The position numbers were made by a program, and so were the translations under genes. Shown here in pieces: positions 30,126 through 64,000 of a stretch of DNA of 64,000 nt (position 1 is the stretch's first letter; each line of letters begins with the position of its first letter). This DNA is from Trypanosoma brucei (taxonomy: Eukaryota): NCBI GenBank assembly GCA_000002445.1, contig CM000208.1, positions 1,536,001 through 1,600,000 of the forward strand, read 5' to 3'. The notes beneath the pieces are model-generated. The model had not been told where the DNA came from. It worked only from the letters and a program-made list of their open reading frames with translations, and did no database searches.

Positions 30126-30227
30126 TTCCCACACCGTTACAAAACTGGGTCGTCTCACAGTTGAAACCTCTTATAAACCCTACCTGGTAGGCAACTTCAC
30201 TGCCCCTTAGGGAGTGTGTCAGCAAGC

Positions 30228-40563: not shown

Positions 40564-42636
40564 TTAGGCAGCGTAAATACCGTTTTTGAATGTCCCATCA
40601 AACACAGTGCCATCGGGATAGCACAGACGGCCTTTCCCGTGCGGCCGGCGATTACACACGTCACCTTCATACATACTTCCATCGATAAATTGGATCTTTC
40701 CCCGCACATCTTTCTGTGTGCCACTACACCACTCACCAACATGTGTCTCGCCGCAAGCATCAGTGAAGCAACCACATCCATGCGGCTTGTCGTTACGCCA
40801 CTCACCGACGTACACCGAGCCGTCTGCGTACCGCAACGTCCCGCTACCACACCGCCCCCCGTTGGACCAGTCACCCTCGTAAACATCACCGTTATTGTAC
40901 CTATAGTGCACAAACCCATCCTGTGACGCTCCCTGATGCCAAAGACACCGCAAAACGGTTCCATCGGGGAAGGAAGCAACTCCCACGCCCTGTCGCTTGC
41001 CATCTAGCCATGTTCCCTCATAAATGTCTTCTGCCGAGCGAGATGTGCCATAGCTCTCTAGTTTTCCTAGAAGAAACAGTCCTTCATACTGGGTGCCAGT
41101 CTCTCCTTCCAATGCTATACCGTGGCCCACCTGGCGATCCCCCTTCCAACTACCTCTGTACATGGACCCGTTGCACCCTTGGTAATAGCCCTCTCCACAG
41201 CGAACGTCATCCTCAAACTCTCCGTGATATGTTCCATCAACTGCACGTTGAACGCCCAAACCACAGCGCACCCCTTTGAACCACTCTCCGGCGTAACTTC
41301 GATTCAGGCCAGTCTCAACAAACTTACCAAAACCGTGCCTCTTGTCGTCTTTCCAACTCCCTTCGTACTTGTCGCCATTGGGGTACGTACAGCAGCCGAT
41401 ACCCTCCCGACAAAGTGACTCATCATTCCAGCCTCCGACGTACACCTCGCCATTGGGAAATGTGAACACACCCCCTTGCCGCTGTCCGTTTTCCCAGTCG
41501 GCTACACAAACGACGCCATTTGCAAAAGTCAACTTCCCCTCACCGGTGCGTTTGTCGTCCTCCCATTTTCCAACGAAAACGTTCCCGGGGGCATCGGTGT
41601 GGGTACCATTTCCATGCCGGCAGCCCTTCGTCCACTCTCCGACGTAAAAGGACCCATCGGGATAGTTAGCTCTGACCTCGGGGCAAAGTTCATCATTCTC
41701 CCATTTTCCGGTCACCGCAACACCACTTGAGTACACAAACAACCCCTCTCCTGAGCGCACATCGTCCTCCCAATGTCCCTGATACCGTGATCCGTCAGGA
41801 TAAAATGCCTTCCCAAGACCATGTTTGTTGTCAAGGTGCCATTCTCCTTCGTAATGAAGGCCATTTGAGGTACAAAAGACGCCAAACCCCTCTCGCATAC
41901 CTTCCTTCCACATTCCCCAGTACGAGCGGTCTGACCACTGGTAAACACCAAGACCCTCCTTCTTCCCATTTACCCACTCCCCTTCGTACACCTCAGCTGT
42001 AAGCAAAGGCAAGGCAATGATGGACCAACTGACCTCACGACGAGACACACCGAGTAGCGACGCCCTCGCCACAGGAGTTGCCTCCTCTCGGCGGTACGAC
42101 CTCGAGTTTTGCTTCCTTAAACTATGTGCACTCCACCTCACTGCGCCCTCTTCAACATTACGGGCGTCTAATCCATATATTACACGACCAAAGCCATGAT
42201 AGTAGAAACCTAACCACGAGCCGCAGTACAAAGATTTGTTGATAAGCGAATACCATTCCGCCTCGTAGCTGTCGCGAAGTGTCAGTTTAAGGCGGATGAA
42301 AGAGTTCCCGTTGTCTTCCACGTAACGCACAGCAAGGTAAAGAGTTCCAAGACTGTAGGAAGGATCCGCTGGGAGAATAGTTAACATTTTGTTCGGATCT
42401 GGTGAAAGGTGCTTCCATACGGCCGTGTGCTTACTTGGATGCGGGTCCGTTGGACTCAGCAGCAGCACGCACCGCGAGGCCGTATTAAATTCCTGAAACT
42501 CAATCAACACTTGCGAGGGTTTTTCAAGCTTGATGCTAAAAAACAACGCCGGATCTGTCACCCCAATACGAACATCACATAACTCCGCGTCTGGTATAAG
42601 AGGGATGGAGATCTTATCCTCCGTTACAGTTAACAT
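40564..42636 (-). CDS. MORN-repeat protein, 690 aa: a non-MORN N-terminal domain of about 200 aa followed by about 16 tandem MORN repeats
   Basis: Repeated 23-residue units of the form 'YEGEWxxGKxHGxGxxxxxDGSxY', e.g. 'YEGEWVNGKKEGLGVYQWSDRSY', 'YEGEWHLDNKHGLGKAFYPDGSRY' and 'YVGEWTKGCRHGNGTHTDAPGNVF'. True ATG at 42636. The repeat DNA also creates spurious long ORFs in other frames (e.g. 40386..41003 minus, 40471..40926 plus). Confidence 0.85.
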   Translation of the reverse strand: MLTVTEDKISIPLIPDAELCDVRIGVTDPALFFSIKLEKPSQVLIEFQEFNTASRCVLLLSPTDPHPSKHTAVWKHLSPDPNKMLTILPADPSYSLGTLYLAVRYVEDNGNSFIRLKLTLRDSYEAEWYSLINKSLYCGSWLGFYYHGFGRVIYGLDARNVEEGAVRWSAHSLRKQNSRSYRREEATPVARASLLGVSRREVSWSIIALPLLTAEVYEGEWVNGKKEGLGVYQWSDRSYWGMWKEGMREGFGVFCTSNGLHYEGEWHLDNKHGLGKAFYPDGSRYQGHWEDDVRSGEGLFVYSSGVAVTGKWENDELCPEVRANYPDGSFYVGEWTKGCRHGNGTHTDAPGNVFVGKWEDDKRTGEGKLTFANGVVCVADWENGQRQGGVFTFPNGEVYVGGWNDESLCREGIGCCTYPNGDKYEGSWKDDKRHGFGKFVETGLNRSYAGEWFKGVRCGLGVQRAVDGTYHGEFEDDVRCGEGYYQGCNGSMYRGSWKGDRQVGHGIALEGETGTQYEGLFLLGKLESYGTSRSAEDIYEGTWLDGKRQGVGVASFPDGTVLRCLWHQGASQDGFVHYRYNNGDVYEGDWSNGGRCGSGTLRYADGSVYVGEWRNDKPHGCGCFTDACGETHVGEWCSGTQKDVRGKIQFIDGSMYEGDVCNRRPHGKGRLCYPDGTVFDGTFKNGIYAA

Positions 42637-45838: not shown

Positions 45839-47584
45839 TCAGAAGAACACACTCCCCATACCCCCCTCAAAATACAGGTGGTTATACTCTCGGTTGTTGT
45901 GACGGAAATTCTTCGCCACGAATGCAAAAAGAGCTTTAGAGGAAACTTCCCCCTGGACCCCATTCCCTTCAGAAGGATACCCGCTCGCAACTGGTAGCAC
46001 AGGGCCTCCTGGCCCTGTGCTACCACGCACCTCCCCTTTGAGGAAATTCAGTGTTGGACACGGCATGTTCTCATCCTGGCGCAAGCAAGCAGCAACGTCC
46101 ACAATGCGTACCCACAACGAATACAAAAGTATCTCCTGGCAATCCTCCCGAGTCACTTGAGCGCCATGTCGCACGACGCCGTATTTCCACACATCATGCA
46201 AAGGATACAGCACATTACGGTAGAACCAGCTTCGATGGCGACTGCGCGCATACAGCGCTACGCGGTACCTCACTGCCTGGTACGCGCGAGTCATTCTGCT
46301 GTAGTACTGCTCGTGCACCTTGGGTCCCTCACTGGGCTTCGGTCTTGCATTCAATGTGGCTTGGTCGAGTCGCTCGAGCGACTCGCTAACCATTCGGAGA
46401 TATAATTGTTTTGCCTCCGACGACGTTAGGGAGGAGGACGGTGCACCGTAAATCAGTTGAAGTTCCGCAACTGACTCCACATATTGCCGCACAAACAATC
46501 CATCGCTTCCGCTTCGCTGGACCACCAATGGGGCTGCAAGAAACAAGGCGAACGAAGCAGCACTACACGTTACTATGAACATGATAACAATGCGGATGCA
46601 ATATGCGAGAAAGAGTCGAAATTCCCTGCGCATCTCAGAGTCTATTCTCCCTACTTCAGTGACGGATACAGTAGAAGAGCTACAATTTGCCACGGCCACC
46701 GGTACGTCAACGGGTGGCCAGCTTGGTGGTGGCTGGTGCCTAGAGCGGAGGTAGCCATTGCGACGTCTGCCATGCGGGTTGCTATTTTCCTTCGGTATGG
46801 GCGAGAGTTCGAGGGGCCCCAGCGTGGACCTCGAGAACGAATTGGATGACGGCGTTGCCTGGCTTGAACGCCCGCTCGTTTTGGGGGAGCCCACCCCCGC
46901 TGCGGGTGCAGTGCTCTTAAGGTACGCAATGGCACTGCGTGTGCTCAGAAAACTAAGATCACTGCGGCTTCCCCCGTGCTTGGGGCGCCTTCCGTCAGAT
47001 GATTGCCGCGTGTGGAAGTGAGACTGCTTACTAGATGTATGTGATGAAAGAGCGCTACTACGTGAAGTCGAATGGGGAACCAGAGTGGTTCCCACTTCCA
47101 ATACCCCGCAAGAACTTCGCACGTCCGGCACACTCCCACGAGTTTGAGGTAGTCCAAAAGAGATGGACTCACGAAGGTGAGAAAACCCATGAACCTCCAA
47201 TTGCTCACTGCAGAGTGACGGCGAGTAATCAATAATGCCCTCTACAGACCGAGCACTTGCAGCTTTGGCTACCTGTGGTGAAACCACCGGCCGCTCCCCG
47301 GCGTCACTCATCGCTAGTGCCCCCTCGGGGTGCTGAACCCCACTACTGGTAGATCCATGATTTGTACCACCACTGCCCAAGCCATCGCCTAATGATGCGC
47401 TCACCGATTGTCTAGAGGTTTTCGGTGTCCGCTCAAAATGAGGCTCCCTCTGTCCTTCTCCATCCTCCTCTTCAAATGCTTCATCTACTGCAGCATTGTG
47501 CAGCTCCAGTCGCCGCCGTGTCGGAGTTCTTAGAGGGGTGCTAGTACCGCTCCTCGACGTTCGTTTGGCCCCACTGTGAGCCAT
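45839..47584 (-). CDS. Hypothetical protein, 581 aa: Ser/Thr/Arg/Pro-rich disordered N-terminal half, one predicted transmembrane helix, conserved-looking C-terminal region
   Basis: True ATG at 47584 ('cat' at 47582-47584). Hydrophobic segment 'IVIMFIVTCSAASFALFLAAPLVV'. No family motif recognised. Confidence 0.55.
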   Translation of the reverse strand: MAHSGAKRTSRSGTSTPLRTPTRRRLELHNAAVDEAFEEEDGEGQREPHFERTPKTSRQSVSASLGDGLGSGGTNHGSTSSGVQHPEGALAMSDAGERPVVSPQVAKAASARSVEGIIDYSPSLCSEQLEVHGFSHLRESISFGLPQTRGSVPDVRSSCGVLEVGTTLVPHSTSRSSALSSHTSSKQSHFHTRQSSDGRRPKHGGSRSDLSFLSTRSAIAYLKSTAPAAGVGSPKTSGRSSQATPSSNSFSRSTLGPLELSPIPKENSNPHGRRRNGYLRSRHQPPPSWPPVDVPVAVANCSSSTVSVTEVGRIDSEMRREFRLFLAYCIRIVIMFIVTCSAASFALFLAAPLVVQRSGSDGLFVRQYVESVAELQLIYGAPSSSLTSSEAKQLYLRMVSESLERLDQATLNARPKPSEGPKVHEQYYSRMTRAYQAVRYRVALYARSRHRSWFYRNVLYPLHDVWKYGVVRHGAQVTREDCQEILLYSLWVRIVDVAACLRQDENMPCPTLNFLKGEVRGSTGPGGPVLPVASGYPSEGNGVQGEVSSKALFAFVAKNFRHNNREYNHLYFEGGMGSVFF

Positions 47585-48548: not shown

Positions 48549-50363
48549 CTACCACTCACCACTGATGTTCTCCCGGCGCTTCTTCAGCGTAGTTTCGTTC
48601 AGCCTCCGCCTTTGACTATCCTTGGATTCCATCATCCGGCGGAATTCATGCCGCGACTTCTTACTCATGTGCGCAGCGGACTGCGATAGATCCAACTTCA
48701 GCGGTGGTGGCTCACTTAGGGCGAAGCCTTTGGCGACTGCGGCGAGGTCGAGGTTGTGAATGTCAAAAACGTTTTTTAACTGAGAGCTGCTGTAGCTGAG
48801 CAAATAGCCCTCATACGCGAGGCGTGCGGAGCTGCGCAGGTAGTAGTTGGCACTCACAAGCTGCTCCAGCTGCTCAGCTACATTTCCCTTCACCTTATTA
48901 AGATCAAATGTGTACTCACTCACTGACACATGGGCGTCGTCGTGCAGATACTTGAGAAACAGTTTCTCCTGGGGAAGAAGAAACATAAGAGCATTCCCTG
49001 TGCGACCAGCACGGGCGGTACGGCCAACGCGATGGACGTACTTGACGGGGTCGTCAGGTGGGTCAAATTGAACGATCCAATCAACCTGCGGAATGTCGAG
49101 ACCACGGGCAGCTACATCTGTGGTAAAGAGCACGCCGCTAGGGGCGTTACAAAACTGCATGTACGTGGCCGAGCGCTGGTGTTGTTTTTGTTTTCCGTGA
49201 AAGGCAACGCAAGGAACATCGATGTAGTTAAACAACTCGCAGTGAAAACTAACAGCATTGCGACTGCTGAAGAAAACGATTACTTTCTTCTTCAGATTCC
49301 GCCTGACAAAGTGATACAGTACAAGCAACCGCTGCTGTGAAGGACAAATAACATAACCCTGTTCCAACGTGTCAACGGTTGCCTTGTCCTCCTTACGCTT
49401 CATTGAAATGAACAGGGGTGGTCGGTAGAACGACACGCGAGCCAACTGTTCGACCCTAGTTGTTTGAGTCGCAGAAAACAAGAACGTTTGTCGCTGCCTG
49501 GGCAGTAAAGAAACAATTTCTCGCATATCATCTTCAAATCCGTTGTCAAGCACACGATCCGCCTCATCGACGGCCAAAACGAGTAAATTCTTTGTTAACC
49601 AATCCGTTGTAAGCTTAAGATGATCCAAGAGACGCCCAGGGGTGGCCATCACAACCATCATGCCACTCACAAGTTTAAACGCCTCTTGCTTCCGACTTAT
49701 TCCGCCTATGCAACAGAGGAACGTTACCGATCCGTTAAAGTGTTTGAGCAGCTTCAGCAGCACTCCTTCAATCTGGAGACACAGCTCACGCGTTGGCCCA
49801 ATGATGATTGCAGCCGTTCCGCTTCGCTGACGAAAACCCACGCGCGTGATGATCTCCACTATTGGGATAAGAAAAGCTAAAGTTTTACCAGAGCCTGTCT
49901 TTGCCTCTGCAAGGAGATCTCGACCGGCAAGGGCAGCAGGAATGCATCGTCCCTGAATGCCTGTCAGCTCCTGGAACTTGAAGTCATTCTCCAATGCAGT
50001 TACTATGTGAGGATTTAACTTCAGCGACCTGTAGTCGGAAACAGGGGGATACTTCTCTCGGTCCCTTGAAACTTTAATTGGCGGACCGTTGGTTTCAGGT
50101 TGCTCTAACTTCCCCGGTTCCTCTTCTCGTTGCCTTTTACGACGTCCAGACGTTTCCCCCTCAACATCGGGCATGGATGCCGCCTTTTCTTCATCCACTG
50201 GGTACTCCTGCTGTTCTTCCCCACCTTCTTCACCAACAAAGGTAAGGGTTTCGTCGTCCGCCTCAGTTGCTTGACTTATCCTACGTTTCGGGCGATGGCG
50301 TCGCATGCGCCTCCGTTTCTTCTCCGGTATCTCCTCCGCAGAGCCTACGTCATCCACACCCAT
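48549..50363 (-). CDS. DEAD-box ATP-dependent RNA helicase, HAS1/DDX18-like ribosome-biogenesis helicase, about 604 aa with a basic and acidic N-terminal extension
   Basis: Q motif 'FQELTGIQ', motif I 'AKTGSGKT', motif II 'VDEAD', motif III 'SAT', motif VI 'HRVGRTARAG'. The block 'GFEDDMREIVSLLPRQRQTFLFSATQTTRVEQLARVSF' matches Has1 '[38 protein letters not shown]' closely (recalled from memory). The track start at 50420 is TTG; the first ATG is at 50363 ('cat' at 50361-50363, MGVDDVG...). Confidence 0.85.
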   Translation of the reverse strand: MGVDDVGSAEEIPEKKRRRMRRHRPKRRISQATEADDETLTFVGEEGGEEQQEYPVDEEKAASMPDVEGETSGRRKRQREEEPGKLEQPETNGPPIKVSRDREKYPPVSDYRSLKLNPHIVTALENDFKFQELTGIQGRCIPAALAGRDLLAEAKTGSGKTLAFLIPIVEIITRVGFRQRSGTAAIIIGPTRELCLQIEGVLLKLLKHFNGSVTFLCCIGGISRKQEAFKLVSGMMVVMATPGRLLDHLKLTTDWLTKNLLVLAVDEADRVLDNGFEDDMREIVSLLPRQRQTFLFSATQTTRVEQLARVSFYRPPLFISMKRKEDKATVDTLEQGYVICPSQQRLLVLYHFVRRNLKKKVIVFFSSRNAVSFHCELFNYIDVPCVAFHGKQKQHQRSATYMQFCNAPSGVLFTTDVAARGLDIPQVDWIVQFDPPDDPVKYVHRVGRTARAGRTGNALMFLLPQEKLFLKYLHDDAHVSVSEYTFDLNKVKGNVAEQLEQLVSANYYLRSSARLAYEGYLLSYSSSQLKNVFDIHNLDLAAVAKGFALSEPPPLKLDLSQSAAHMSKKSRHEFRRMMESKDSQRRRLNETTLKKRRENISGEW

Positions 50364-51109
50364 AGTGCAACTCTGCTGCCAACTTCCTGCCGTTACAAAC
50401 TTTACACAGAACCCCCGCAAAAGTTCACCTTTTATTTAACTTTGCGTCTCCATCGGTAAGCGCGCAAGGCGGGGCACAAGGATACGCGTAGCAAGTAGAA
50501 AAACAAAAATGGATAAAATAGAGTAGTTAAACGGCGCGTAAAGCTGTAAAACAAAAGCGCAAGCACACATAACAGTAGAAACGATAAGCCTTTTTAACAC
50601 AAGCACTCACCATAATCACCGTGTGGTAAATGTCCGAAGATATAACGCCAGAAGGCAGGGAAAGCAGAGAACGCAGTGCCCCGCTACTTGGATTCATCCG
50701 CTCGACTAGTAAAGGAAGAGGGCCACAACACCACAACACGCCCTCAATAACGTAATGACGCGGAACCTCCAGGTAGCCAAGCGGTATGGCACTCCCGAGT
50801 TCGTTTGACCACCCGATTCCGGGCAATAATGCGCCACCACCACGCGTACACAGCAAGGGGGACAATTGCTGATGCAAGAAACGAAGATAATATAACATAA
50901 TATAATATATATATCGAGCCATAAACTACATTAACCACCATACGTGATGGCATTACCCGCGACAACAGTGGCGCGAGCCATGAGTCAGCCGCATGGTAAA
51001 TGCGGGAGGGTGGTGGGCACTGGAAGAACATTAACCTCTGTCCCCACCCCTTTTTCCGAAACCAGCACGCAGCTTTTAAAAAATATACAAACAAGCTCCG
51101 GCGTAACAA

Positions 51110-51766
51110 CTATGGACTCACAAAACTAATTAACTCTGCGATACTAAGAATTTTCCCACAGCCCTGCTCTTTCTTCACATCTTCACCGCTACTGCTTTGG
51201 TGCACATCCACATACAAACCTAGCCGCATGTCAGATGGCGCACGGCATCCCCTAATAAGTGGCCACGGGGGCTGGGCAGCGTCAAAATCCTTCATGTGGG
51301 AGCGGTCAGATGAGAAATACTCCAGATAATCCCTTCCCGGAACAACACGGAAGCGCTGTCGATACTTGTCGTCCAATTGCATCTCCGGGTGAAAAGACTC
51401 CTCGATGTAACGGAGTCCCTCACATGGGAACGGTAGCGTTGTATCTTGATCAAACGCCCACATGCCGCCCTCGTCACCTGCGCCCACATTAACAAGAGTT
51501 ATCACGTGATAGTCCCACATTAGCGGACACCTCCCGTTCCCTAATCTTTGCTTCCATACCGGTGTGGATTTACAGTCGTTGCTAATGAATACCGCAAAAA
51601 CAGCGTGATCGGGGAGCGAAAAATCTCGATAGAGTGCCTCAACGAGTTTGTATGCGTTCTCTTCACAGTAGTGAGAAGCATAGGGAACGTGTTCACGACG
51701 GAGACAACGCAGCCGTTCTAAAACAGAGAGCGTGGGAAGTGCACGTTCTCGATAAGCATCAGCCAT
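51110..51766 (-). CDS. NTAQ1: Protein N-terminal glutamine amidohydrolase (NTAQ1 / WDYHV1 family; Nt-Gln amidase of the Arg/N-degron pathway), 218 aa
   Basis: Contains the family-defining 'WDYHV' pentapeptide ('PLMWDYHVITL'). The N-terminal catalytic-Cys context 'YASHYCEENAYKLV' matches the conserved 'CEEN' motif of NTAQ1. The size is right (about 200 aa). The track start at 51784 is GTG; the first ATG is at 51766 ('cat' at 51764-51766, MADAYRER...). Confidence 0.85.
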   Translation of the reverse strand: MADAYRERALPTLSVLERLRCLRREHVPYASHYCEENAYKLVEALYRDFSLPDHAVFAVFISNDCKSTPVWKQRLGNGRCPLMWDYHVITLVNVGAGDEGGMWAFDQDTTLPFPCEGLRYIEESFHPEMQLDDKYRQRFRVVPGRDYLEYFSSDRSHMKDFDAAQPPWPLIRGCRAPSDMRLGLYVDVHQSSSGEDVKKEQGCGKILSIAELISFVSP

Positions 51767-52148
51767 CAGACACAGTGGATACACCTAAAACAAATGGCTG
51801 CGAACAAAGTAACAAAAAAAAAGTGACCGCCGCAAGAACAAATGGTGAAGACAGATACGAGCAAACTATGTATGTGAGGCGCCCTGACGCTATACAAGTA
51901 GTAAAGAAACAGAATCAGGAACAAAACTAGATGCAGAAATAAGTAGTGCAAGTCAGGGGAAAGCGAGGAGGCAGTTTACCACCCAACGTACGCAAAAGCG
52001 CCATGCGCTAGCACTACAACGTGTCGTTAAAGCACAAATGGGGAAACTTAGACAGCATTAAAATTTTTGATTACTTTCGTCACAACTATGCCTTCAGGCC
52101 GGAGATAAAGATGACTGAAGCTCACAACGAACGACCCTCGCGGGACTT

Positions 52149-53687
52149 TCATGACTTCATCTGCTTCCGCACCTCTCGCCGCTTTGCCCAGAGTGACTTG
52201 TGCTGCTGTTTCTTCGTCATTTGGAAGACAGATTCGTGTTCACGACGGAGACGCAGCGTAGAGAAGTCGGCCGTGCCATGCTTTGCATCGTCGTAACCCA
52301 TATCGTTGTCGCCCCGCTCCCGTTTTGCCCTCCTTGCAGTAGTTAACTGGCGCGCTTCCCTCTCAAATTTCGCCTCCTGGTCGCTCTCTCGCATCTCCTT
52401 CACCGCCTCCTGCTCAGCGTCCTCTACACGCTGCAGTACAGCAGCAACGTCACCATCACTAATGGGCCACTCTTCACACTTCACACCCGTCGACGCTTCC
52501 ACCTTCTGCAGTAACACAATATCATATTGACTGATAATGTTGACAGCCTTTCCCTGTGCCCCAGCACGCGCCGTACGCCCTACGCGGTGGATATAATCTT
52601 CCACTCGGTCCGGCAGCGCAAAGTTGACAACAACATCTGTACGGGGAATATCCAAACCACGTTGCGCAACATCTGTACACACAAGGATGCGCACCCTACC
52701 CTCCTTGAACTTTGTTAAGGCAATGTTACGGTTCTTCTGATCCATGCGACCCATGAGCGGCAATGCCTGGTGGCCTAACACTCGTAATGTCAGCGTGATG
52801 CGATGTACCAACGCGGCACTGCGGCAAAAGACAAGAATGTGGTTCCCGGACTCACGCGTAAGATACAAATGAAGATAAGGAAGCATCTGCGCAAACGGAG
52901 CGAAAACGTAATACTGCTTGAGGGTGTCCACAGTTGTGTTTTTGCGATGAACCTCAAGAAGAACGGGGTCATTAAGCGATGCGTTCTGCAAACGGTCGAT
53001 CTTCGTGCTGAGGGTGGCAGAGAATAGAAGTGTCTGGCGGTTGTGTGGCAGATGTTCCAGAATGGCGTTTATCTCCTTTTCGTAGTCCATTTCTAGCATC
53101 TTATCAGCCTCATCGAGCACAAGTGCGTGAAGCTTGACCAGTTGAAACCCCTTCGTGTTGTTCAGGTGATCTTTTACACGGCCTGGCGTGCCGACAACAA
53201 CGTGCGGCCGCCGGCTCAACTCGCATGCCTGATCAACCATATCCGCCCCACCAACTAAAGTCGCCACACGCAGGCCCACGCTGCTCCCGAGCATAACAAA
53301 CTGTGCCGCAACCTGTTGTGCAAGCTCGCGCGTGGGAACCATCACTAGAATTGAAAGATAAGGAACCTTTGCTTGCGTTAAAAGCCAATTCACGAGGGGC
53401 AGAACGTATGCTCCAGTTTTCCCGCTGCCTGTCTGCGCAACGCCAATGATGTCCCTCCCCTCGGAGACAACAGGAATTGTTGCAACCTGAATTCTCGTCG
53501 GCATGCGCCAGCCCGCTTCTTTGCACGCGCCAATAAGCTCCTCACACAGCCCAAGTGACTTAAACGTCACATCCTTGCTCTCTTCGTTGTCCAGCAACTC
53601 AGAGCCAATGCTTTGGTTAGGCGGTATGGTACGGAGCGACTCCTCCCTTGGCCGCTTCTTTCCTCCCGCCAACTTCTCCTTAACCAT
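52149..53687 (-). CDS. DEAD-box ATP-dependent RNA helicase, RRP3/DDX47-like, 512 aa
   Basis: 'FKSLGLCEELIGACKEAGWRMPTRIQVATIPVVSEGRDIIGVAQTGSGKTGAY' matches Rrp3 'F.ELNLVPELIQACKNL.Y.KPTPIQ...IP..LEG.DIIGLAQTGSGKTAAF'. Motif II 'VLDEADKML', motif III 'SAT', motif VI 'HRVGRTARAG'. True ATG at 53687. Confidence 0.85.
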   Translation of the reverse strand: MVKEKLAGGKKRPREESLRTIPPNQSIGSELLDNEESKDVTFKSLGLCEELIGACKEAGWRMPTRIQVATIPVVSEGRDIIGVAQTGSGKTGAYVLPLVNWLLTQAKVPYLSILVMVPTRELAQQVAAQFVMLGSSVGLRVATLVGGADMVDQACELSRRPHVVVGTPGRVKDHLNNTKGFQLVKLHALVLDEADKMLEMDYEKEINAILEHLPHNRQTLLFSATLSTKIDRLQNASLNDPVLLEVHRKNTTVDTLKQYYVFAPFAQMLPYLHLYLTRESGNHILVFCRSAALVHRITLTLRVLGHQALPLMGRMDQKNRNIALTKFKEGRVRILVCTDVAQRGLDIPRTDVVVNFALPDRVEDYIHRVGRTARAGAQGKAVNIISQYDIVLLQKVEASTGVKCEEWPISDGDVAAVLQRVEDAEQEAVKEMRESDQEAKFEREARQLTTARRAKRERGDNDMGYDDAKHGTADFSTLRLRREHESVFQMTKKQQHKSLWAKRREVRKQMKS

Positions 53688-55795: not shown

Positions 55796-58384
55796 TTACT
55801 GCTGCACATGACCAGTCAACTCTGACGCTGTGTTGAAGAGGTTAATGGGAGTGCTGCCATCCATAACTAAGTATCCCTGGAGTCCCAAACTTTCCAGCAG
55901 CTTGGCTTGGAGTTCGGGACCGGCCTTCGCAATTTCTTCCACCGTATCAGGGCCCAGAGCGCTCATCACCGCGGCAAACTTGTCATTCTCAATTTTGGAG
56001 AGCTCTCGCTTAAACTCACGTTCGAGAGAAGCTCGAGCCGCTTCGTATTGATGCTCCTGAGTCCGCCTGTTCTGCTCGATCTCGCACAGCGCACCATTCA
56101 TAATATCTTCACTCTTCATACGAACGCGTGTACACTTTAGGTTGGTCTCCTCTTCCACACTGGCAGCCTTCGCAGCAGAATCAGCGGCTGATCTGAAACG
56201 ACCTGAAGATATGGTGGCAGCACTCTTCGCCTCCGCTTCCAACAGGGCCTTCCTCTGGGTCTCATTTTCTACCTGGTCTTTCATTTTTTGCTGCGCAAGC
56301 AAGGCGGAAGACTGTTGTTCACGTGCCAGTGCAACCTGCTGTGCACTCGATTCTTGGGCCTGAGTTGACATTTCAATAGCAATTTTTACTGACTTTTGGA
56401 GGCCTTCACGTGTGCGGGGGTCGAGAACTTCCATTGTATGAGTGTCAACGGAAGTAACCACAAAGTTATTCGCGTCAAATCGGAGTTCACTCATGGGATC
56501 GCCGTTGACAGGATTTATCCCAAATACCGCCTGCTGAAGCACCTTCACACTGCTCTTGTGAAATTGCTGAAAAGGAAGGGATGCAACAGCGGCACGTATG
56601 CGCCCGGCAATAAGGGAACATGCGTCGGCGATGAAGTCATCTACACCAAAGCACTTACGAGCAGCGGCCTCGTCGCCGTGTGCAACATCGAAATGCCATG
56701 CATAGCACAGCTGTAGGGCAAGCTGGGCATGATCCCGTGTTTCGACGTGGACAATGTCTGTTACGTTCGAAGGGCCGAGGAAGAGATGTAGAGCGTTCAC
56801 ACGGCTGGACTCCTTAGATTGGCATTTCGCGGGACTTGTCCCATCAGACGAGGGTAGCGAAAGTTTTACAACTGTAAACTCTTCATCTGGCTCCAAAGTA
56901 ACGCGGTCGGGACCAAAAATGGTGCGGGTTTTCATTGTCCGGTAGTTGTATAGCTGTGTCACACTCCGATGAGGAACCTTGTAGACCACTGTTTTGTACG
57001 CACTCCTCACTAGATTACGAGGAACGAGCACTGGTCCTTGTCCCGCAGCAATGTGCCCCTCCATAGGAGACAGCTGCCGCTGCAAACACCCTTCGACATC
57101 CGGAGGAAGTGATTTTTCCCACAACTCCTCGTGAACCCCAAGCATATACGCTGCGGGACCTGTTACTGTTCTAACTACGCCCGTGGTTTTGTCTCTCACA
57201 TAAATACCATCACCGTCGCACAAAAGAATGCGTTCCCGTATGTCGTTACCATTTTTGTCCTTGCATACCTCCACCAAACTGTGCGGAACATACTCCCGTG
57301 GCCCGTGGAGCAACCAAAGGTCCTCAGCCACACGCTGCACTGGTGGCTCCACACTTTCGTCCTGAAACATGTCAAGGGCGCGCAAAAGAAGTGCCTGTCC
57401 CTCACCAAGAAGATAACATCCATGTATTGCATCATTTTCCACCTCCTCATCGACTTGCAGGTAATAGGAAACGTTGGTTATAGTACGCCGCCGAGATTTA
57501 GAAGCATTCACAATAACAGCGTATTGCTTGTCCGTAAGGCGCATCTTGTGAACAGTACGCAAAATTTTTTCATTTGGATGAGGCACGAACATGGGGCAGT
57601 CCTCGTGGGTGACAACGTACACCTCCCCGGCGTGGCGCGCTCTGTTGAAGGCATTGGGCCGCTCGTCCACAAAGTTGCGCAACACCTCGACATGTAACGC
57701 CTCATCAGGGGGTATAATAAGCGGCTCGACGTGTTCGACGAACTGCTCATCCACATCGCACAAATACGACCCCGGTGTCAGATAAAGGTACTCATCATCC
57801 CGTTTACGGGTACGTCCGGTCCTATCAGTGAACAATTCCAAAGCACGTAGCCTAATTGCGCACCCTTTCTTAATGTTAACAGCGTGACGCACCTCTAGTG
57901 GCGTCTCCTCTACGCGGGGAAAGTAAGTCCCGGGACCTTTAAACAAATAACGCTCGCCCTGAGATCGTCTCACGCCACCCTCAGATGTGTAGTCATGTAT
58001 CACGCGCACAAGAAGGGCACTATTCGTGTCGAGAACCGTGAGGGGTTCCACCGACACGAGTTTTTCCTCAGGGTACAATGGAACAGCGAGGGGACCCACA
58101 AAAATCTTCCGCTTTCCGAGAGACACCTTCACCTGTCCGGACTTATCACAGACAGGCGTAACGCCATCTTCTGCTACTTCGTGAGGATTTTCAATACAGC
58201 AGTAGTGCCCATGTGGCACCACATGAAAGGGGGTTATTGGTTTGGTTAACCGCTCGTCTGAACCTAGCGTGCGCGTCATCGGTCCGGTGATAAGAACCGT
58301 ACCATTATCGTTGTCGTTCGTGATGTGAGCATACTGATGAACCCCCAGTTTCAGGACCAGCTCATTCGCTAAATAATCATTCAT
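55796..58384 (-). CDS. MVP: Major vault protein (MVP), about 862 aa
   Basis: The length and organisation are those of MVP (human 893 aa). The N-terminal vault-repeat region has the conserved early 'PxHYC' block ('VVPHGHYCCIENP'; human 'VPPRHYCTVANP'). The repeats are built as 'KGxxxxxR(V/I)..G..Y.L.P.E'. The C-terminal region is an Ala/Glu/Gln-rich coiled coil ('...QQVALAREQQSSALLAQQKMKDQVENETQRKALLEAEAKSAA...'), corresponding to the shoulder and cap-helix. The track start at 58390 is GTG; the first ATG is at 58384 ('cat' at 58382-58384). Confidence 0.8.
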   Translation of the reverse strand: MNDYLANELVLKLGVHQYAHITNDNDNGTVLITGPMTRTLGSDERLTKPITPFHVVPHGHYCCIENPHEVAEDGVTPVCDKSGQVKVSLGKRKIFVGPLAVPLYPEEKLVSVEPLTVLDTNSALLVRVIHDYTSEGGVRRSQGERYLFKGPGTYFPRVEETPLEVRHAVNIKKGCAIRLRALELFTDRTGRTRKRDDEYLYLTPGSYLCDVDEQFVEHVEPLIIPPDEALHVEVLRNFVDERPNAFNRARHAGEVYVVTHEDCPMFVPHPNEKILRTVHKMRLTDKQYAVIVNASKSRRRTITNVSYYLQVDEEVENDAIHGCYLLGEGQALLLRALDMFQDESVEPPVQRVAEDLWLLHGPREYVPHSLVEVCKDKNGNDIRERILLCDGDGIYVRDKTTGVVRTVTGPAAYMLGVHEELWEKSLPPDVEGCLQRQLSPMEGHIAAGQGPVLVPRNLVRSAYKTVVYKVPHRSVTQLYNYRTMKTRTIFGPDRVTLEPDEEFTVVKLSLPSSDGTSPAKCQSKESSRVNALHLFLGPSNVTDIVHVETRDHAQLALQLCYAWHFDVAHGDEAAARKCFGVDDFIADACSLIAGRIRAAVASLPFQQFHKSSVKVLQQAVFGINPVNGDPMSELRFDANNFVVTSVDTHTMEVLDPRTREGLQKSVKIAIEMSTQAQESSAQQVALAREQQSSALLAQQKMKDQVENETQRKALLEAEAKSAATISSGRFRSAADSAAKAASVEEETNLKCTRVRMKSEDIMNGALCEIEQNRRTQEHQYEAARASLEREFKRELSKIENDKFAAVMSALGPDTVEEIAKAGPELQAKLLESLGLQGYLVMDGSTPINLFNTASELTGHVQQ

Positions 58385-58935
58385 TATCACACCTCACCTA
58401 TACCTTGTCTGCTCACGCTGCTGTGAACGATTTTTTTTTCTTTTCCTCCTTTAATAGATGATCTACGCGCACCACACGATGGCACTCACACGTTATCGCC
58501 GGCTCATCGAAAAAATAAGATAATGTAGCCACAAACCAGTAAGAACGGGATACGTATATACATATATATATTTGACAAGTAAAAAAAAAAGAAAGAAAAG
58601 GAAGGGAGCACACGTACCCACGCATCTGTGCATGTCCGATCCGATAGGCGATTGGCAAAATTTTTTCGCACTCGAAACACAATTGAACCATATTTACTTT
58701 ACTTATTTAACGCGTTGCTACCGGTGTCAAACGTGGAGCTCGAGTTTACTTTCCCTCTCTGCCCCTTCAAAGCTGCCAACGTTCCATGGCAGTTGAGTCA
58801 AGCGGGGAAGTGGGAAAAAAAAAACCACCACCGCCACAATTCCGTGCCAATCGCACCATACCACGCCCCTGAATCTTTAAACGTGTACCTTTTTGATCAG
58901 AAAGTGTTTCTGCAATGTCGTTTGTGCGATAGGCG

Positions 58936-60777
58936 CTACTCACCAGCGGGATCTGATGCCTCATCATTGTGAGCACGTTTTACACCGGCCGTTAATTTCC
59001 CAGACTTTCTTCGTTTCATCGTCTCGGGAAGCGGCGGCGGCGGCCGAATTTCCCCCGACGACGGGTCATGCGACTCCAACAACTCATACGGTCCAAGAGC
59101 GTCCAGCTGCTTTGTCACCACCGGAGCCTGTCCATGCGTCAACTTTGAAACCTTGTAAAAGTGTTTACAAAACACCTCCGCTACGTTACGCATCGTTGGA
59201 TGGAAACTCTTTGCTAGAAGACTCAACTCCCAAGTGAAGCTGCAATCAGCGTTCGATGAGGCAATCTGCGTCGCCCCAGGTGTGTACACACCACGACCTG
59301 CTATAAAGTTGTCACTACCACCAATGACAATCCCACTGACCGCCGGATACCGCAACATAAGGCGGTGATTGAGAGCCAATAAAGAAAGGCCAATGTGGGG
59401 CGGACACGAAGGAATGGCCTGCATTATGCGGCGAACAAAGGCCGTAACACGTGGCACCGGAAGGTGCTTTTGGGTTAAAACCAAAAGGTCCATAGCACGC
59501 AATACGAGGCCAACGCGAAATGTCCACTCCCGCGATGCATTTGAGTGCACAAACTTCTCCTGTGCCATGGACTCCGTTATGGAGAAGGCCTGCGAAGAAA
59601 GGGAACCAGCAGATGACGTAGATCCCTGGGAGGCAACTTCATCCCCGTCATCGTCTCCATCCCCGCCTTCCCCAGTTGTCCCCTTATTTGATTCAACACA
59701 TTTCGGAAGGGTAAGAGCCTCAGGGAGACAGCGGAAGAGCACCTCGTGGAAATAACTAAGGTCCACCCGCCAGTCGCTTGCCGTCGTTGTTGCGTCCCTC
59801 TGCGCAAGAGAAGCCACAGACACAAGGGCGTGCAACTTTGTAGTGACAGAGGTAGCCTCGTCGTTTACAAGATCCTTAAGCGCCGTAATGAGCTGTTGGT
59901 GGAGTTCCACATTAACGAGAGGGGCAAACTTCACCAAGCCTTCAAGCGCCGGAGCAAGGATCCTCGTTTGATGCTGTTGGGAACATGATTTGGACGCCTC
60001 GAGTACGCGCAAGTAAATGACAAAAACACGATGCAAGATCCGGCTCTGTTTAACGACAATCTCAGCGCGGTCGCGCCTCGCCTTGCTCTTCTGTAGCTGG
60101 CGGGCCAATTCCTTGTCTTCTTTTTTCAGTCGCTTGTTCTTCGCCACTTCCTCTGTCAAGTCCCGGCGGTGCATGTCCACCATCGCCACCCGTATATGCA
60201 AAAGCAAATTAAGGAGCTTTGGATTCATGGCATAATGTTGCTTACGAACAATATCTAAAAGCGCTGAGACAATGCACTCTGTTGCATCAGAAACCATCTG
60301 TCCGTCGAGTAACTCGGCGAGCGCCGTCAGTGCCGGTCGTGCCACACGCGTTGATTTCGCATTTGCAAACGTAACTGCCAGCGACAAGAGCTTGTCCGCA
60401 TGATTGAACTCAGACGCACGGGGGACCAGTCGTGCACACAAGCGACTTCCGAGCGCCTGCTGCTCCGGGTGCGGCTTCCTCTGCAGCCTTCGCAAAAGCT
60501 GAAGGAAGTGCTCATACTGCACGAGTACCTCGTGCTCCAGCTTCTGCACTTGATACACCTCCTTCTGCTTGCGACCGGTCTGACCACCATCCTCCTCTTC
60601 GATCGTTGCAGATATTTTGTAATTTGGTATAACGTCGCACAGGATAGAGCACTCCTTCGTGAGGTTTTCCACAAGTTCACCGTAGTCGCTCACGGTGCGG
60701 TTATGCAGCGAGTGCAGCTCCTTGAGTTGAGAACTCAAATAAGACGTATTCATCAAGTAGCGCTGCATGGCTGCCAT
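58936..60777 (-). CDS. NOC3: NOC3-like nucleolar pre-ribosome / replication-licensing protein (tentative), 613 aa, helical-repeat
   Basis: The N-terminal region 'ECSILCDVIPNYKISATIEE...KEVYQVQKLEHEVLVQYEHFLQLL' resembles the Noc3p N-domain consensus '...VFkDIIPgYrIrpLTE.E...SKEVkkLR.FEqaLl.hYk.YLqlL'. The rest is ARM/HEAT-like helical with basic KK/RR linkers. True ATG at 60777. The assignment is from memory of the family consensus only. Confidence 0.45.
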   Translation of the reverse strand: MAAMQRYLMNTSYLSSQLKELHSLHNRTVSDYGELVENLTKECSILCDVIPNYKISATIEEEDGGQTGRKQKEVYQVQKLEHEVLVQYEHFLQLLRRLQRKPHPEQQALGSRLCARLVPRASEFNHADKLLSLAVTFANAKSTRVARPALTALAELLDGQMVSDATECIVSALLDIVRKQHYAMNPKLLNLLLHIRVAMVDMHRRDLTEEVAKNKRLKKEDKELARQLQKSKARRDRAEIVVKQSRILHRVFVIYLRVLEASKSCSQQHQTRILAPALEGLVKFAPLVNVELHQQLITALKDLVNDEATSVTTKLHALVSVASLAQRDATTTASDWRVDLSYFHEVLFRCLPEALTLPKCVESNKGTTGEGGDGDDDGDEVASQGSTSSAGSLSSQAFSITESMAQEKFVHSNASREWTFRVGLVLRAMDLLVLTQKHLPVPRVTAFVRRIMQAIPSCPPHIGLSLLALNHRLMLRYPAVSGIVIGGSDNFIAGRGVYTPGATQIASSNADCSFTWELSLLAKSFHPTMRNVAEVFCKHFYKVSKLTHGQAPVVTKQLDALGPYELLESHDPSSGEIRPPPPLPETMKRRKSGKLTAGVKRAHNDEASDPAGE

Positions 60778-62020: not shown

Positions 62021-64000
62021 CTAAACGATTTCCAACGAATATTGCGGATCGCGAGCATACTCAGGCACGGGGGGCGCTGTGACATCGGAGCGCCAGGTGT
62101 TACCAACCTCCCCATCGACATTAGCCCCCATTATACCATTGCCCCGCACCCTCCGTTCATTGTTCGTCAACGAAGATACGCCATTTGGATCTCGTGCACC
62201 CATGGCTTGCCGCAACTCCAGCGTAGTTGTCCCGGTACCCTGTTCCACAAAAAAACGTGGAACGACACCCTGAGGAAACATGGCTACACCGCCAGACGTA
62301 GTAGTGGCAACTTCTCCACCAAAAGTTGGGGAAACACTTGTCGCACCACTATGTCCCAGCAACGCCTCCAGCTCACGAAGAGCGGCGGAAGTCTCCTGCT
62401 GGGGCAGAAGCGTGGTTGTAGCGCCTCTATTTTCATAGCACTGTTTTGCGTCGTCGTGGTGGCCACCATTTTGGCCCTGCTCAGGTTGGGGGGAATATGT
62501 GACTAGCTGTCCAGGATTACCAGCCCCAGCCCCTTCCACGCGGTTTTTCTTCTCCGCGGTCATGCGACAAGCGCTCCCTTCAGCCTCACCTCCATCTTGT
62601 GCCCTCTTGCGGTCAGCCGTGTTCACCATGTTAACGTGGGCCACCACAAGCCTCCCAGGAACCTGCGGACGGGACGAATGCGGCAAGTCGTAGTTGTTGG
62701 CCCTCCCCTCTACTACAACGGGAAGAATAGCAGCATGAGGAGCGACCGCGGCAGTGGACACAAGGTTGTGTTGGGAAGCGGTACCCCTGTCAAAACCATA
62801 CACAGCAAGATCCCCGCGCCTCTCTCCCTCCGTGGCCAACACTTGCCGTCTTGCTGGAGGTCCAGCGCACTCCCCGTAATGTCGGCGTTCATCCTGTCGC
62901 TGAAGCTCATCGAAGACATCCCCCGCGGTTTGGTACGTAGCAAAAAACTGAAGAGCAAGTGCCGATGGGACGGTGACACAGTTCGCAGAATTAGTTCCCT
63001 GTAGAGGTGGCACAGTTGTATCGTCAATAGGTTCCTCGTCACCCTCACTGAACACGCTCATCTCATGCCACGTGCTGTTTGCACCGATGTCCCCGATGGC
63101 AGTAGATGCCTCTTTAAGCATTTCAGAAAACCGTTTACTCCGACCAGGGTTGCTCTCAACCAGCACCGCCTCGGGAAAAGTAGAAGCTGCTACGTTGCTC
63201 AGCTGTCCATTTGGACTCGTCGCGGGGTTTATCCTCTTTACTTGTCCTTCCTGAGGGCTAGTTTGGATCCCTTTCGAGACCGTTGGAGCCCTCCCCGTTA
63301 GAATGGTTTCAGCACCCTCAGCTTGGCGATATGATTCGTTGAGTCTCTCCTGTGCTTTTGATAAAGGAGTAATACCGCCTTGTTTACGACCACTCGCGTC
63401 GGCAGCCCCGGTGCCGCTGTCAAACGCGGGCGGTAAGCCGCACGACCCTCCACTGGAACATGGTGAAAGACTGTCCGCCGACGATGTCACTGTATCCTGG
63501 AGTTGGCTGGAAAATGTGGTGTTAGCGTGGGGGCGCCGTGTTAGTGTCACCTCTACCTTCTGCTCGTTTCTCCGCTGAAGGTGCAACGGTATCGGTGCGG
63601 GAACTGCATCAAAATCACCATGAGACATCGTCAGGTCGTCGAACACATTGTCGTCTGATGGTCGTTGCAACTCCTCCAGTGAATAGGAAAACAATTCACC
63701 GCCCTGATAGGGCGTGCCATCAGGCTGGGCGACGTCGCACACTTCGACAGACACCCCCGCCCCCTCCTCTTCTTCGTTATCTAGTGAATCACCAGCACCA
63801 AGCATGTCCGCAATCTCATCACAACTCTCACCAACGGTCTCCTTTACAACAAACTTTGTACGCTTCAGCAGCCTCACCAGCAAGCGAAAAAATACCACAT
63901 TCTCATCACGTATCTCCCTAGCCATATCGTTAATTCGTCCAACTTGCATCTTTATCTCCTGCACAGCCTTTGAGACTGCCTCTCCAAAGTGGTGGGCATC
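62021..64000 (-). CDS. Hypothetical protein, probably 5'-truncated by the window edge (at least 642 aa), Ser/Thr/Gly-rich disordered body with a coiled-coil-like N-terminal segment
   Basis: The minus-strand reading frame stays open from 62021 to the window end at 64000; I see no in-frame stop between 63965 and 64000. The ORF-track start at 63964 is GTG. An in-frame ATG exists at 63949, but the real start may lie beyond the window. Confidence 0.45.
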   Translation of the reverse strand, partial: DAHHFGEAVSKAVQEIKMQVGRINDMAREIRDENVVFFRLLVRLLKRTKFVVKETVGESCDEIADMLGAGDSLDNEEEEGAGVSVEVCDVAQPDGTPYQGGELFSYSLEELQRPSDDNVFDDLTMSHGDFDAVPAPIPLHLQRRNEQKVEVTLTRRPHANTTFSSQLQDTVTSSADSLSPCSSGGSCGLPPAFDSGTGAADASGRKQGGITPLSKAQERLNESYRQAEGAETILTGRAPTVSKGIQTSPQEGQVKRINPATSPNGQLSNVAASTFPEAVLVESNPGRSKRFSEMLKEASTAIGDIGANSTWHEMSVFSEGDEEPIDDTTVPPLQGTNSANCVTVPSALALQFFATYQTAGDVFDELQRQDERRHYGECAGPPARRQVLATEGERRGDLAVYGFDRGTASQHNLVSTAAVAPHAAILPVVVEGRANNYDLPHSSRPQVPGRLVVAHVNMVNTADRKRAQDGGEAEGSACRMTAEKKNRVEGAGAGNPGQLVTYSPQPEQGQNGGHHDDAKQCYENRGATTTLLPQQETSAALRELEALLGHSGATSVSPTFGGEVATTTSGGVAMFPQGVVPRFFVEQGTGTTTLELRQAMGARDPNGVSSLTNNERRVRGNGIMGANVDGEVGNTWRSDVTAPPVPEYARDPQYSLEIV

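What the first reader, a model, noticed from the sequence alone, without database searches (positions are those of the whole stretch)
51110..51766. NTAQ1 (WDYHV) N-terminal glutamine amidase: an Arg/N-degron pathway component in a kinetoplastid
The ORF carries the eponymous WDYHV motif and the catalytic 'CEEN' cysteine context of Nt-Gln amidohydrolase. This enzyme converts N-terminal Gln to Glu for subsequent arginylation and degradation. The N-degron pathway is poorly characterised in trypanosomatids, so its presence suggests an intact Nt-amidation to arginylation branch. The ORF-track start is GTG; the real ATG is 6 codons downstream.
Basis: partly seen in the sequence, partly recalled or inferred. 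Interest (0 to 1): 0.5.

Follow-up and report, generated by a model that had tools for sequence, protein, structure and literature searches.

The report
Trypanosoma brucei NTAQ1 glutamine amidase gene
This is an ordinary, intact gene of Trypanosoma brucei that encodes the enzyme converting an N-terminal glutamine to glutamate (NTAQ1); public databases already name it this way by homology, but it has not been studied experimentally in trypanosomes.

Summary
A 218-codon ORF on the minus strand (ATG 51766 to stop 51110) matches Pfam PF09764 (Nt_Gln_amidase) end to end (E = 1.5e-53) and matches human NTAQ1 crystal structures (E = 2e-33). The human Cys28-His81-Asp97 triad corresponds to Cys34-His87-Asp106, and the five residues that hold the substrate's alpha-amino group are all present and invariant. 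An AlphaFold model (pLDDT 88.9) superposes on human NTAQ1 (TM 0.77-0.86). The GTG/ATG remark is right.

The protein is 100% identical to a Trypanosoma brucei brucei TREU927 protein. NCBI calls it 'hypothetical protein, conserved'; UniRef already calls it 'Protein N-terminal glutamine amidohydrolase'. Orthologues occur in nine further Trypanosoma species. The identification is therefore sound but already known by automated annotation.

My one ATE1 search returned only fungal hits, no paper held here addresses the question, and nothing in the window encodes an ATE or UBR domain.

One side observation: among named kinetoplastids, only Trypanosoma appears in the searches. No Leishmania, Crithidia or Bodo protein turned up, which hints at lineage-specific retention but does not prove it. 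Interest is low.

The parts
51110..51766 (-). Complete coding sequence of the T. brucei NTAQ1 orthologue (218 codons plus TAG stop at 51112-51110)
   Evidence: ORF list and translation. PF09764 E = 1.5e-53. 100% identical to the T. brucei TREU927 protein P0001.
51656..51667 (-). C34-E35-E36-N37 motif; Cys34 (51667-51665) is the predicted catalytic nucleophile and Glu35 corresponds to human Glu29 (alpha-amino recognition)
   Evidence: Aligns with human Cys28-Glu29-Glu30-Asn31. Invariant in alignment A1. Roles taken from PMC4214742 and PMC11168063.
51503..51517 (-). W84-D85-Y86-H87-V88 motif; His87 (51508-51506) is the predicted general base, and Asp85/Tyr86 correspond to human Asp79/Tyr80 (substrate backbone contacts)
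   Evidence: Aligned with human W78-D79-Y80-H81-V82. Invariant.
51449..51451 (-). Asp106, third member of the predicted catalytic triad
   Evidence: Aligns with human Asp97 in 'YDLDT' / 'FDQDT'. Invariant.
51293..51310 (-). S153-D154-R155-S156-H157-M158 motif; His157/Met158 correspond to human His148/Met149, which hold the substrate N-terminus
   Evidence: Alignment to 4w79. S153, D154, R155, H157 and M158 are invariant. Role from PMC11168063.
51782..51784 (-). GTG that opens the mechanical ORF; not the initiation codon
   Evidence: ORF list. The eukaryotic gene and public model start at the ATG six codons downstream. The GTG directly follows a candidate splice-acceptor AG.
51785..51829 (-). 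Candidate spliced-leader acceptor region: pyrimidine-rich tract (cggtcactttttttttgttactttgttcgc) followed by AG at 51799-51798 and AG at 51786-51785, 18-31 nt upstream of the ATG
   Evidence: Read directly from the sequence. Its function is inferred from the general rule of kinetoplastid trans-splicing and is not demonstrated here.

Best explanation
The ORF is the single-exon gene for the Trypanosoma brucei orthologue of NTAQ1 (protein N-terminal glutamine amidohydrolase, EC 3.5.1.122). It sits inside a long minus-strand polycistronic unit of unrelated housekeeping genes.

Shown here:
- a full-length family match;
- conservation of the Cys34-His87-Asp106 triad;
- conservation of the residues that clamp the substrate's free alpha-amino group (Glu35, Asp85, Tyr86, His157, Met158);
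- a confidently predicted fold that superposes on human NTAQ1.

Inferred from the human and mouse enzyme:
- Cys34, activated by His87 and Asp106, attacks the side-chain amide of an N-terminal Gln exposed by endoproteolytic cleavage.
- Ammonia leaves, the thioester is hydrolysed, and the protein is left with N-terminal Glu.

Inferred and untested for this organism:
- The N-terminal Glu is then arginylated by an Arg-tRNA-protein transferase.
- The resulting N-terminal Arg is bound by a UBR-box E3 ligase, leading to ubiquitylation and proteasomal degradation.
For: - Family match: PF09764 E = 1.5e-53, profile 1-183/184.
- Solved structures: human NTAQ1 chains 4w79/3c9q E = 2e-33 over residues 24-172. 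The C28S mutant chains differ at exactly the column of Cys34.
- Conservation: invariant C34, E35, E36, N37, W84, D85, Y86, H87, V88, D106, D108, Y120, S153, D154, R155, H157, M158 across trypanosome, vertebrate, environmental and bacterial-MAG homologues.
- Predicted fold: AF2 model pLDDT 88.9, pTM 0.86. Foldseek top 17 hits are all human NTAQ1, E about 1e-19 to 1e-17, TM 0.76-0.86, rmsd 2.3-2.8 A for most hits over about 200 columns. The next hit is SseI at E = 0.05.
- Catalytic and binding roles of the human residues come from PMC4214742 and PMC11168063.
- Orthologues at 46-57% identity in T. congolense, cruzi, rangeli, conorhini, theileri, melophagium, vivax and grayi show purifying conservation.
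- Identity with the TREU927 protein and its UniRef name.
Against: - No enzymatic, expression or phenotype data for any trypanosome NTAQ1 were found in the held literature.
- The downstream partners (ATE1, UBR-box N-recognin) were not located for T. brucei. The ATE1 search listed only fungal proteins, and no large ORF of the window has an ATE or UBR domain.
- The loop after the SHMK motif is 4-5 residues shorter than in human and lacks a counterpart of human Glu158, a residue proposed to help sense the second substrate residue. Fine specificity may therefore differ.
Confidence: 0.85

Rival explanations
1. It is a genuine, active N-terminal Gln amidase, but in trypanosomes it does not feed a canonical ATE1/UBR Arg/N-degron route. 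The N-terminal Glu product might be handled by a bacterial-type L/F-transferase-like enzyme, as with Plasmodium ATEL1. Alternatively, deamidation might serve a non-degradative purpose, such as preventing pyroglutamate formation.
For: A putative L/F-transferase-like protein (LmjF.21.0725) is described in Leishmania and Bodo. The same paper states that nothing is known about the pathway in Leishmania (PMC6135404). I could not show a T. brucei ATE1. Named NTAQ1 hits in kinetoplastids are limited to Trypanosoma, so pathway composition may differ between lineages.
Against: In every organism where NTAQ1 has been studied, it acts upstream of ATE1 (established knowledge, summarised in PMC11168063). 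The failure to display a T. brucei ATE1 is a limit of the search, which listed only the top 120 hits, all fungal. It is not evidence of absence.
Confidence: 0.1
2. It is an NTAQ1-fold protein with a changed activity, such as a protein-glutaminase, a transglutaminase-like enzyme or a peptidase, or it is a pseudoenzyme.
For: The fold belongs to the papain/transglutaminase-like group, whose members catalyse varied reactions (PMC4214742). There is a weak sub-threshold hit to Gln_deamidase_2 (E = 0.032, 14.9 bits against a cut-off of 25). The post-SHMK loop is shortened.
Against: The triad and all five alpha-amino-recognition residues are invariant. The whole-length profile match and the structural match are to NTAQ1 only. 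The next structural neighbour is at E = 0.05, TM 0.29.
Confidence: 0.04
3. It is a chance ORF or a decayed pseudogene.
For: None beyond the fact that the mechanical ORF list opens with a GTG.
Against: E = 1.5e-53 to Pfam. The frame is uninterrupted with full profile coverage. Orthologues are conserved across the genus. The same coding sequence appears in two independent T. brucei read assemblies, with only a synonymous change.
Confidence: 0.01

Closest known systems
Human/mouse NTAQ1 (WDYHV1, C8orf32; PDB 4W79, 3C9Q, 6KGJ, 8JJx series)
   Same: - Same Pfam family over its full length.
- 33-36% identity.
- Same Cys-His-Asp triad and the same Glu/Asp/Tyr/His/Met alpha-amino clamp.
- Predicted fold superposes at TM 0.77-0.86.
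   Different: - About 6 extra N-terminal residues.
- A loop after SHMK that is 4-5 residues shorter and lacks the human Glu158 counterpart.
- A variable, low-confidence acidic/Ser-rich loop at residues 192-199.
- No biochemical data for the trypanosome protein.
Trypanosoma orthologues (T. congolense, cruzi, rangeli, conorhini, theileri, melophagium, vivax, grayi)
   Same: 46-57% identical, same length class (218-243 aa), a single PF09764 domain and 55 invariant positions.
   Different: N-termini and the 192-199 loop vary. Several are misnamed 'DREV methyltransferase' in NCBI although they carry only PF09764.
Yeast Nta1 and metazoan NTAN1 (the other N-terminal amidases of the Arg/N-degron pathway)
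   Same: Same pathway level: tertiary destabilising residues converted to secondary ones (established knowledge; PMC11168063).
   Different: Unrelated folds and families. Pfam returned no family above its cut-off other than PF09764 at E <= 1.
LmjF.21.0725, putative L/F-transferase-like protein of Leishmania major (PMC6135404)
   Same: It is the only other trypanosomatid N-degron-pathway candidate that I found discussed in the held literature.
   Different: A different enzyme class (aminoacyl-tRNA-protein transferase) at a different step, with no sequence relationship. That paper does not report it in Trypanosoma.

Membership tests
NTAQ1 / Nt_Gln_amidase (PF09764; EC 3.5.1.122) | Significant, full-length match to the family profile above the curated threshold | tested here: met
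   181.5 bits against a cut-off of 27, E = 1.5e-53, protein 29-215 on profile 1-183/184.
NTAQ1 / Nt_Gln_amidase (PF09764; EC 3.5.1.122) | Cys-His-Asp catalytic triad at the positions of human Cys28, His81 and Asp97 | tested here: met
   Cys34, His87 and Asp106 align to them and are invariant in 14 homologues. Triad defined in PMC4214742.
NTAQ1 / Nt_Gln_amidase (PF09764; EC 3.5.1.122) | Residues that recognise the free alpha-amino group and N-terminal backbone (human Glu29, Asp79, Tyr80, His148, Met149) | tested here: met
   Glu35, Asp85, Tyr86, His157 and Met158 are all invariant. Roles from PMC11168063.
NTAQ1 / Nt_Gln_amidase (PF09764; EC 3.5.1.122) | Alpha-beta-alpha sandwich fold of human NTAQ1 | tested here: met
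   The AF2 model (pLDDT 88.9) matches human NTAQ1 chains at E about 1e-19, TM 0.77-0.86. The fold is predicted, not solved.
NTAQ1 / Nt_Gln_amidase (PF09764; EC 3.5.1.122) | Specific deamidation of N-terminal Gln (not Asn, not internal Gln) | not testable with these tools
   Needs an enzyme assay. No trypanosome data in the held literature.
Arg/N-degron pathway (functional membership) | The same genome encodes an Arg-tRNA-protein transferase (ATE_N/ATE_C or ATEL1-type) and a UBR-box N-recognin | tested here: inconclusive
   A yeast ATE1 query (verified against PDB 8e3s) listed only fungal proteins among its best 120. No ATE or UBR domain occurs in the window's ORFs. No paper was found. The T. 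brucei proteome itself is not searchable here.
DREV methyltransferase (name carried by some Trypanosoma orthologues in NCBI) | A methyltransferase domain | tested here: not met
   At E <= 1, Pfam finds only PF09764 plus a sub-threshold Gln_deamidase_2 hit in the T. brucei protein. The so-named orthologues carry only PF09764 in the precomputed column.
Gln_deamidase_2 (PF18626) | Score above the curated cut-off | tested here: not met
   14.9 bits against a cut-off of 25, E = 0.032.

The most novel reading that the evidence does not exclude
Within kinetoplastids, NTAQ1 may be retained only in the genus Trypanosoma and in some unannotated, probably free-living relatives, and lost from Leishmania and its allies. 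Leishmania and Bodo carry an L/F-transferase-like candidate that has not been reported in Trypanosoma. If both hold, the upstream branches of the N-degron pathway would be wired differently in the two major groups of trypanosomatid parasites.
Probability: 0.25. Interest if true: 0.35.

Novelty: already known. Interest (0 to 1): 0.15.

Why it matters
The result confirms that T. brucei has a catalytically intact first enzyme of the Nt-Gln branch of the Arg/N-degron pathway. It gives residue-level predictions (C34, H87, D106) for anyone who wants to test N-degron biology or design conditional degrons in trypanosomes. It does not change current understanding. The gene is in the published genome and already carries the correct name in UniRef, and NTAQ1 is widespread in eukaryotes (1958 homologous cluster representatives at E <= 0.001). 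The only mildly new angle is the apparent restriction to Trypanosoma among named kinetoplastids, which still needs a proper proteome-level check.

Tried and rejected
1. **ATE1 in T. brucei.** I recalled the yeast ATE1 sequence, verified it against PDB 8e3s (502/503 identical) and searched with it. Only the best 120 of 208 hits are listed and all are fungal, so the search says nothing about trypanosomes.
2. **Literature.** Ten searches covered NTAQ1, ATE1, arginyltransferase, N-degron, N-end rule and UBR, each combined with trypanosome terms.
   - No paper on NTAQ1, ATE1 or UBR N-recognins in trypanosomes turned up.
   - PMC8844716 used a Ub-Leu-eK degron on GFP in T. brucei but did not test dependence on the N-terminal residue.
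   - Two apparent 'UBR' hits contained no such word in their main text.
   - PMC1413915 (Graciet 2006) is not held.
3. **Foldseek against afdb50.** I wanted a divergent Leishmania structural homologue, but the library is not installed.
4. **Logan contigs L001/L002.** I hoped they were spliced-leader-bearing transcripts. They are genomic fragments without SL or poly(A), so they give no expression evidence.
5. **Synteny of the 16.8-kb contig L003.** It carries the nearest non-Trypanosoma-like homologue (P0299). No window gene other than NTAQ1 matches it, and its neighbours have no informative Pfam domains, so its organism remains unknown.
6. **Rfam gathering scan of the whole window.** No hits.
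7. **Rejected ideas.** Functional clustering with neighbours is ruled out, because the flanking genes are two DEAD-box helicases and other unrelated housekeeping genes. The 'DREV methyltransferase' label is ruled out, because there is no such domain.

Full report
**Observation**

The finding's coordinates enclose an ORF on the minus strand. The mechanical ORF runs from 51784 to 51110 (224 aa from a GTG). The first ATG is at 51766, six codons downstream, and gives 218 aa ending at a TAG at 51112-51110.

**Identity**

- Pfam gives one family above its curated cut-off: PF09764 Nt_Gln_amidase, E = 1.5e-53, 181.5 bits (cut-off 27). It covers residues 29-215 on profile positions 1-183 of 184.
- The only other entry is a sub-threshold Gln_deamidase_2 hit (14.9 bits against 25).
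- Against solved structures, the best matches are all human NTAQ1 (4w79, 3c9q, 6kgj, 8jj* series) at E = 2e-33 to 6e-32 over residues 24-172. The next hit is at E = 0.09.

**Catalytic and binding residues**

The human triad is Cys28-His81-Asp97 (PMC4214742).

- Counting along the HMMER alignment to 4w79 places the triad opposite Cys34, His87 and Asp106 of the window protein.
- The C28S mutant chains differ from wild type at exactly the Cys34 column.
- The 2024 substrate-complex study (PMC11168063) shows that the substrate's alpha-amino group and N-terminal backbone are held by Glu29, Asp79, Tyr80, His148 and Met149. These correspond to Glu35, Asp85, Tyr86, His157 and Met158.
- Tyr111, which hydrogen-bonds Asp97, corresponds to Tyr120.
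- All of these positions are invariant in a 14-sequence alignment spanning eight Trypanosoma species, three vertebrates, two environmental eukaryote-like sequences and a spirochaete MAG.
- One difference: human Glu158, proposed to sense a positively charged second residue, lies in a loop that is 4-5 residues shorter in the trypanosome proteins and has no counterpart.

**Fold**

AlphaFold2 on that alignment gives mean pLDDT 88.9 and pTM 0.86. Low confidence is confined to residues 1-4 and 192-199. In Foldseek against the PDB, the first 17 hits are all human NTAQ1 (E 3.6e-19 to 3.5e-17, TM 0.76-0.86, rmsd mostly 2.3-2.8 A over about 200 columns). The next hit is Salmonella SseI at E = 0.05, a known distant structural neighbour of NTAQ1.

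**Organism and prior annotation**

- The protein is 100% identical over its full length to a 218-aa protein of Trypanosoma brucei brucei TREU927 that lies on a 4,054,025-bp contig.
- NCBI calls it 'hypothetical protein, conserved'. UniRef calls it 'Protein N-terminal glutamine amidohydrolase'.
- Orthologues at 46-57% identity occur in T. congolense, T. cruzi, T. rangeli, T. conorhini, T. theileri, T. melophagium, T. vivax and T. grayi.
- The T. vivax and T. melophagium proteins are correctly named in NCBI. Four others carry the wrong label 'DREV methyltransferase' although PF09764 is their only domain.
- The identification is therefore right but not new.

**Gene model and context**

On the coding strand, a pyrimidine-rich tract (about 51829-51801) is followed by AG dinucleotides at 51799-51798 and 51786-51785, with the ATG 18-31 nt further on. 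This is the usual layout of a kinetoplastid spliced-leader acceptor. It is an inference, not a demonstration. In either case the GTG is either untranslated leader or the very first base of the mRNA, and the first AUG is 51766.

All real-looking ORFs of at least 180 aa in the window are on the minus strand. The neighbours are unrelated housekeeping genes:

- two DEAD-box helicases flanking NTAQ1;
- a mitochondrial-type S5;
- major vault protein;
- NOC3/CBF;
- a Ras/Rab-like GTPase;
- a MORN-repeat protein;
- an XRN exonuclease;
- a 3246-aa BEACH protein;
- COG3, GPI2, an M76 peptidase, an aldehyde dehydrogenase and a TPR protein.

No ORF carries an ATE or UBR domain. As expected for kinetoplastid polycistrons, position says nothing about function.

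**Mechanism**

Shown here: an intact active site, an intact N-terminus clamp and an NTAQ1 fold.

Inferred from the mammalian enzyme (PMC4214742): Cys34 thiolate attacks the side-chain amide carbon of an N-terminal Gln, ammonia leaves, water hydrolyses the thioester, and the protein leaves with N-terminal Glu.

Inferred from general knowledge of the Arg/N-degron pathway: N-terminal Gln arises by endoproteolytic cleavage rather than by Met removal. The Glu product is then arginylated and recognised by a UBR-box E3 ligase.

**What could not be settled**

- The yeast ATE1 query was verified against PDB 8e3s, but the search lists only its 120 best hits, and all are fungal.
- No paper in the held library deals with ATE1, UBR N-recognins or NTAQ1 in trypanosomes.
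- The nearest item is PMC6135404. It describes a putative L/F-transferase-like protein in Leishmania major and Bodo, and states that nothing is known about the pathway in Leishmania. It does not mention Trypanosoma orthologues.
- PMC8844716 used a Ub-Leu-eK degron to shorten GFP half-life in T. brucei. This is compatible with N-degron recognition but was not controlled for it.

**Distribution (side result)**

- An exhaustive HMMER scan of 1.84 billion cluster representatives found 1958 homologues at E <= 0.001. Two Trypanosoma clusters score 195-208 bits, then there is a gap to 139 bits.
- The ten next-best hits that I looked up are environmental sequences, a brown alga and an unnamed EukProt entry. 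None is a Leishmania protein.
- In a profile search built from nine Trypanosoma sequences, every named kinetoplastid hit is a Trypanosoma.
- A second tier of six unnamed Logan/JGI sequences follows at 266-281 bits. Below it, scores fall to 195 bits for other eukaryotes.
- Those six share trypanosome-like motifs and the short loop.
- One of their clusters includes a sequence filed under the chrysophyte Synura sphagnicola in EukProt. I suspect this is a bodonid contaminant.
- The one long contig (L003) is not syntenic with the window.
- The absence of Leishmania, Crithidia, Leptomonas and Bodo names is suggestive of loss or strong divergence. It is not proof, because only the top 120-150 hits are visible and genomes could not be searched in six frames.

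**Verdict**

- Novelty is 'already known', because the correct name already exists in UniRef and for two orthologues in NCBI.
- The pathway-level inference is plausible but untested.
- Interest is low (0.15). The only thread worth a short follow-up is the phyletic pattern of N-degron components across kinetoplastids.

Noticed in passing
Proteins P0004, P0006, P0009, P0293 (orthologues of window 51110-51766): The T. conorhini, T. theileri, T. grayi and T. rangeli orthologues are named '(putative) DREV methyltransferase' in NCBI, yet PF09764 is their only Pfam domain. This looks like a propagated annotation error.
   Followed up: partly
Search results for window 51110-51766: Among named kinetoplastids, only Trypanosoma species appear as NTAQ1 homologues. 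No Leishmania, Crithidia, Leptomonas or Bodo protein is among the top hits of either the exhaustive or the profile search. This may mean lineage-specific loss, but it is not proven.
   Followed up: partly
P0294-P0299; locus L003 8001-8669: Six unnamed SRA/metagenome proteins form a clade: 45-85% identical to each other and 40-49% to Trypanosoma NTAQ1, sharing the short post-SHMK loop. One cluster contains a sequence filed under Synura sphagnicola in EukProt, probably a kinetoplastid contaminant. The 16.8-kb contig shows no synteny with the window.
   Followed up: partly
window 51293-51280 region (residues 159-166) versus human 150-162: The loop after the SDRSHM motif is 4-5 residues shorter in most Trypanosoma proteins (not T. 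grayi). It lacks a counterpart of human Glu158, a residue proposed to influence preference for the second substrate residue.
   Followed up: partly
window 1-64000, minus strand: All convincing ORFs lie on the minus strand, forming one polycistronic unit. They include a 3246-aa BEACH-domain protein (9797-19537), COG3 (20364-22559), an XRN exonuclease (37029-39434), a MORN-repeat protein (40564-42636), two DEAD-box helicases (48549-50420 and 52149-53687), major vault protein (55796-58390) and NOC3/CBF (58936-60777).
   Followed up: partly
window 22814-27340, 308-2455, 45839-47584, 62021-63964, 5825-7174, 28626-30158 (all minus strand): Six large ORFs (449-1508 aa) have no Pfam match at E <= 0.001. 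They are presumably kinetoplastid-specific proteins of unknown function.
   Followed up: no
window 50887-50913; L001 ~930-960; L002 ~930-950; L002 711: An AT-rich microsatellite (ATAAT/TA units) in the presumed 3' UTR differs in length between the window and two independent T. brucei read assemblies. L002 also carries a synonymous TTA->CTA change in the Leu codon near the C-terminus.
   Followed up: no
Proteins P0325, P0138 (ENA); P0031, P0126, P0156: Some environmental homologues fuse the NTAQ1 domain to a zf-MYND domain (PF01753) or sit inside much longer proteins (529-649 aa). None of these architectures occurs in the trypanosome proteins.
   Followed up: no
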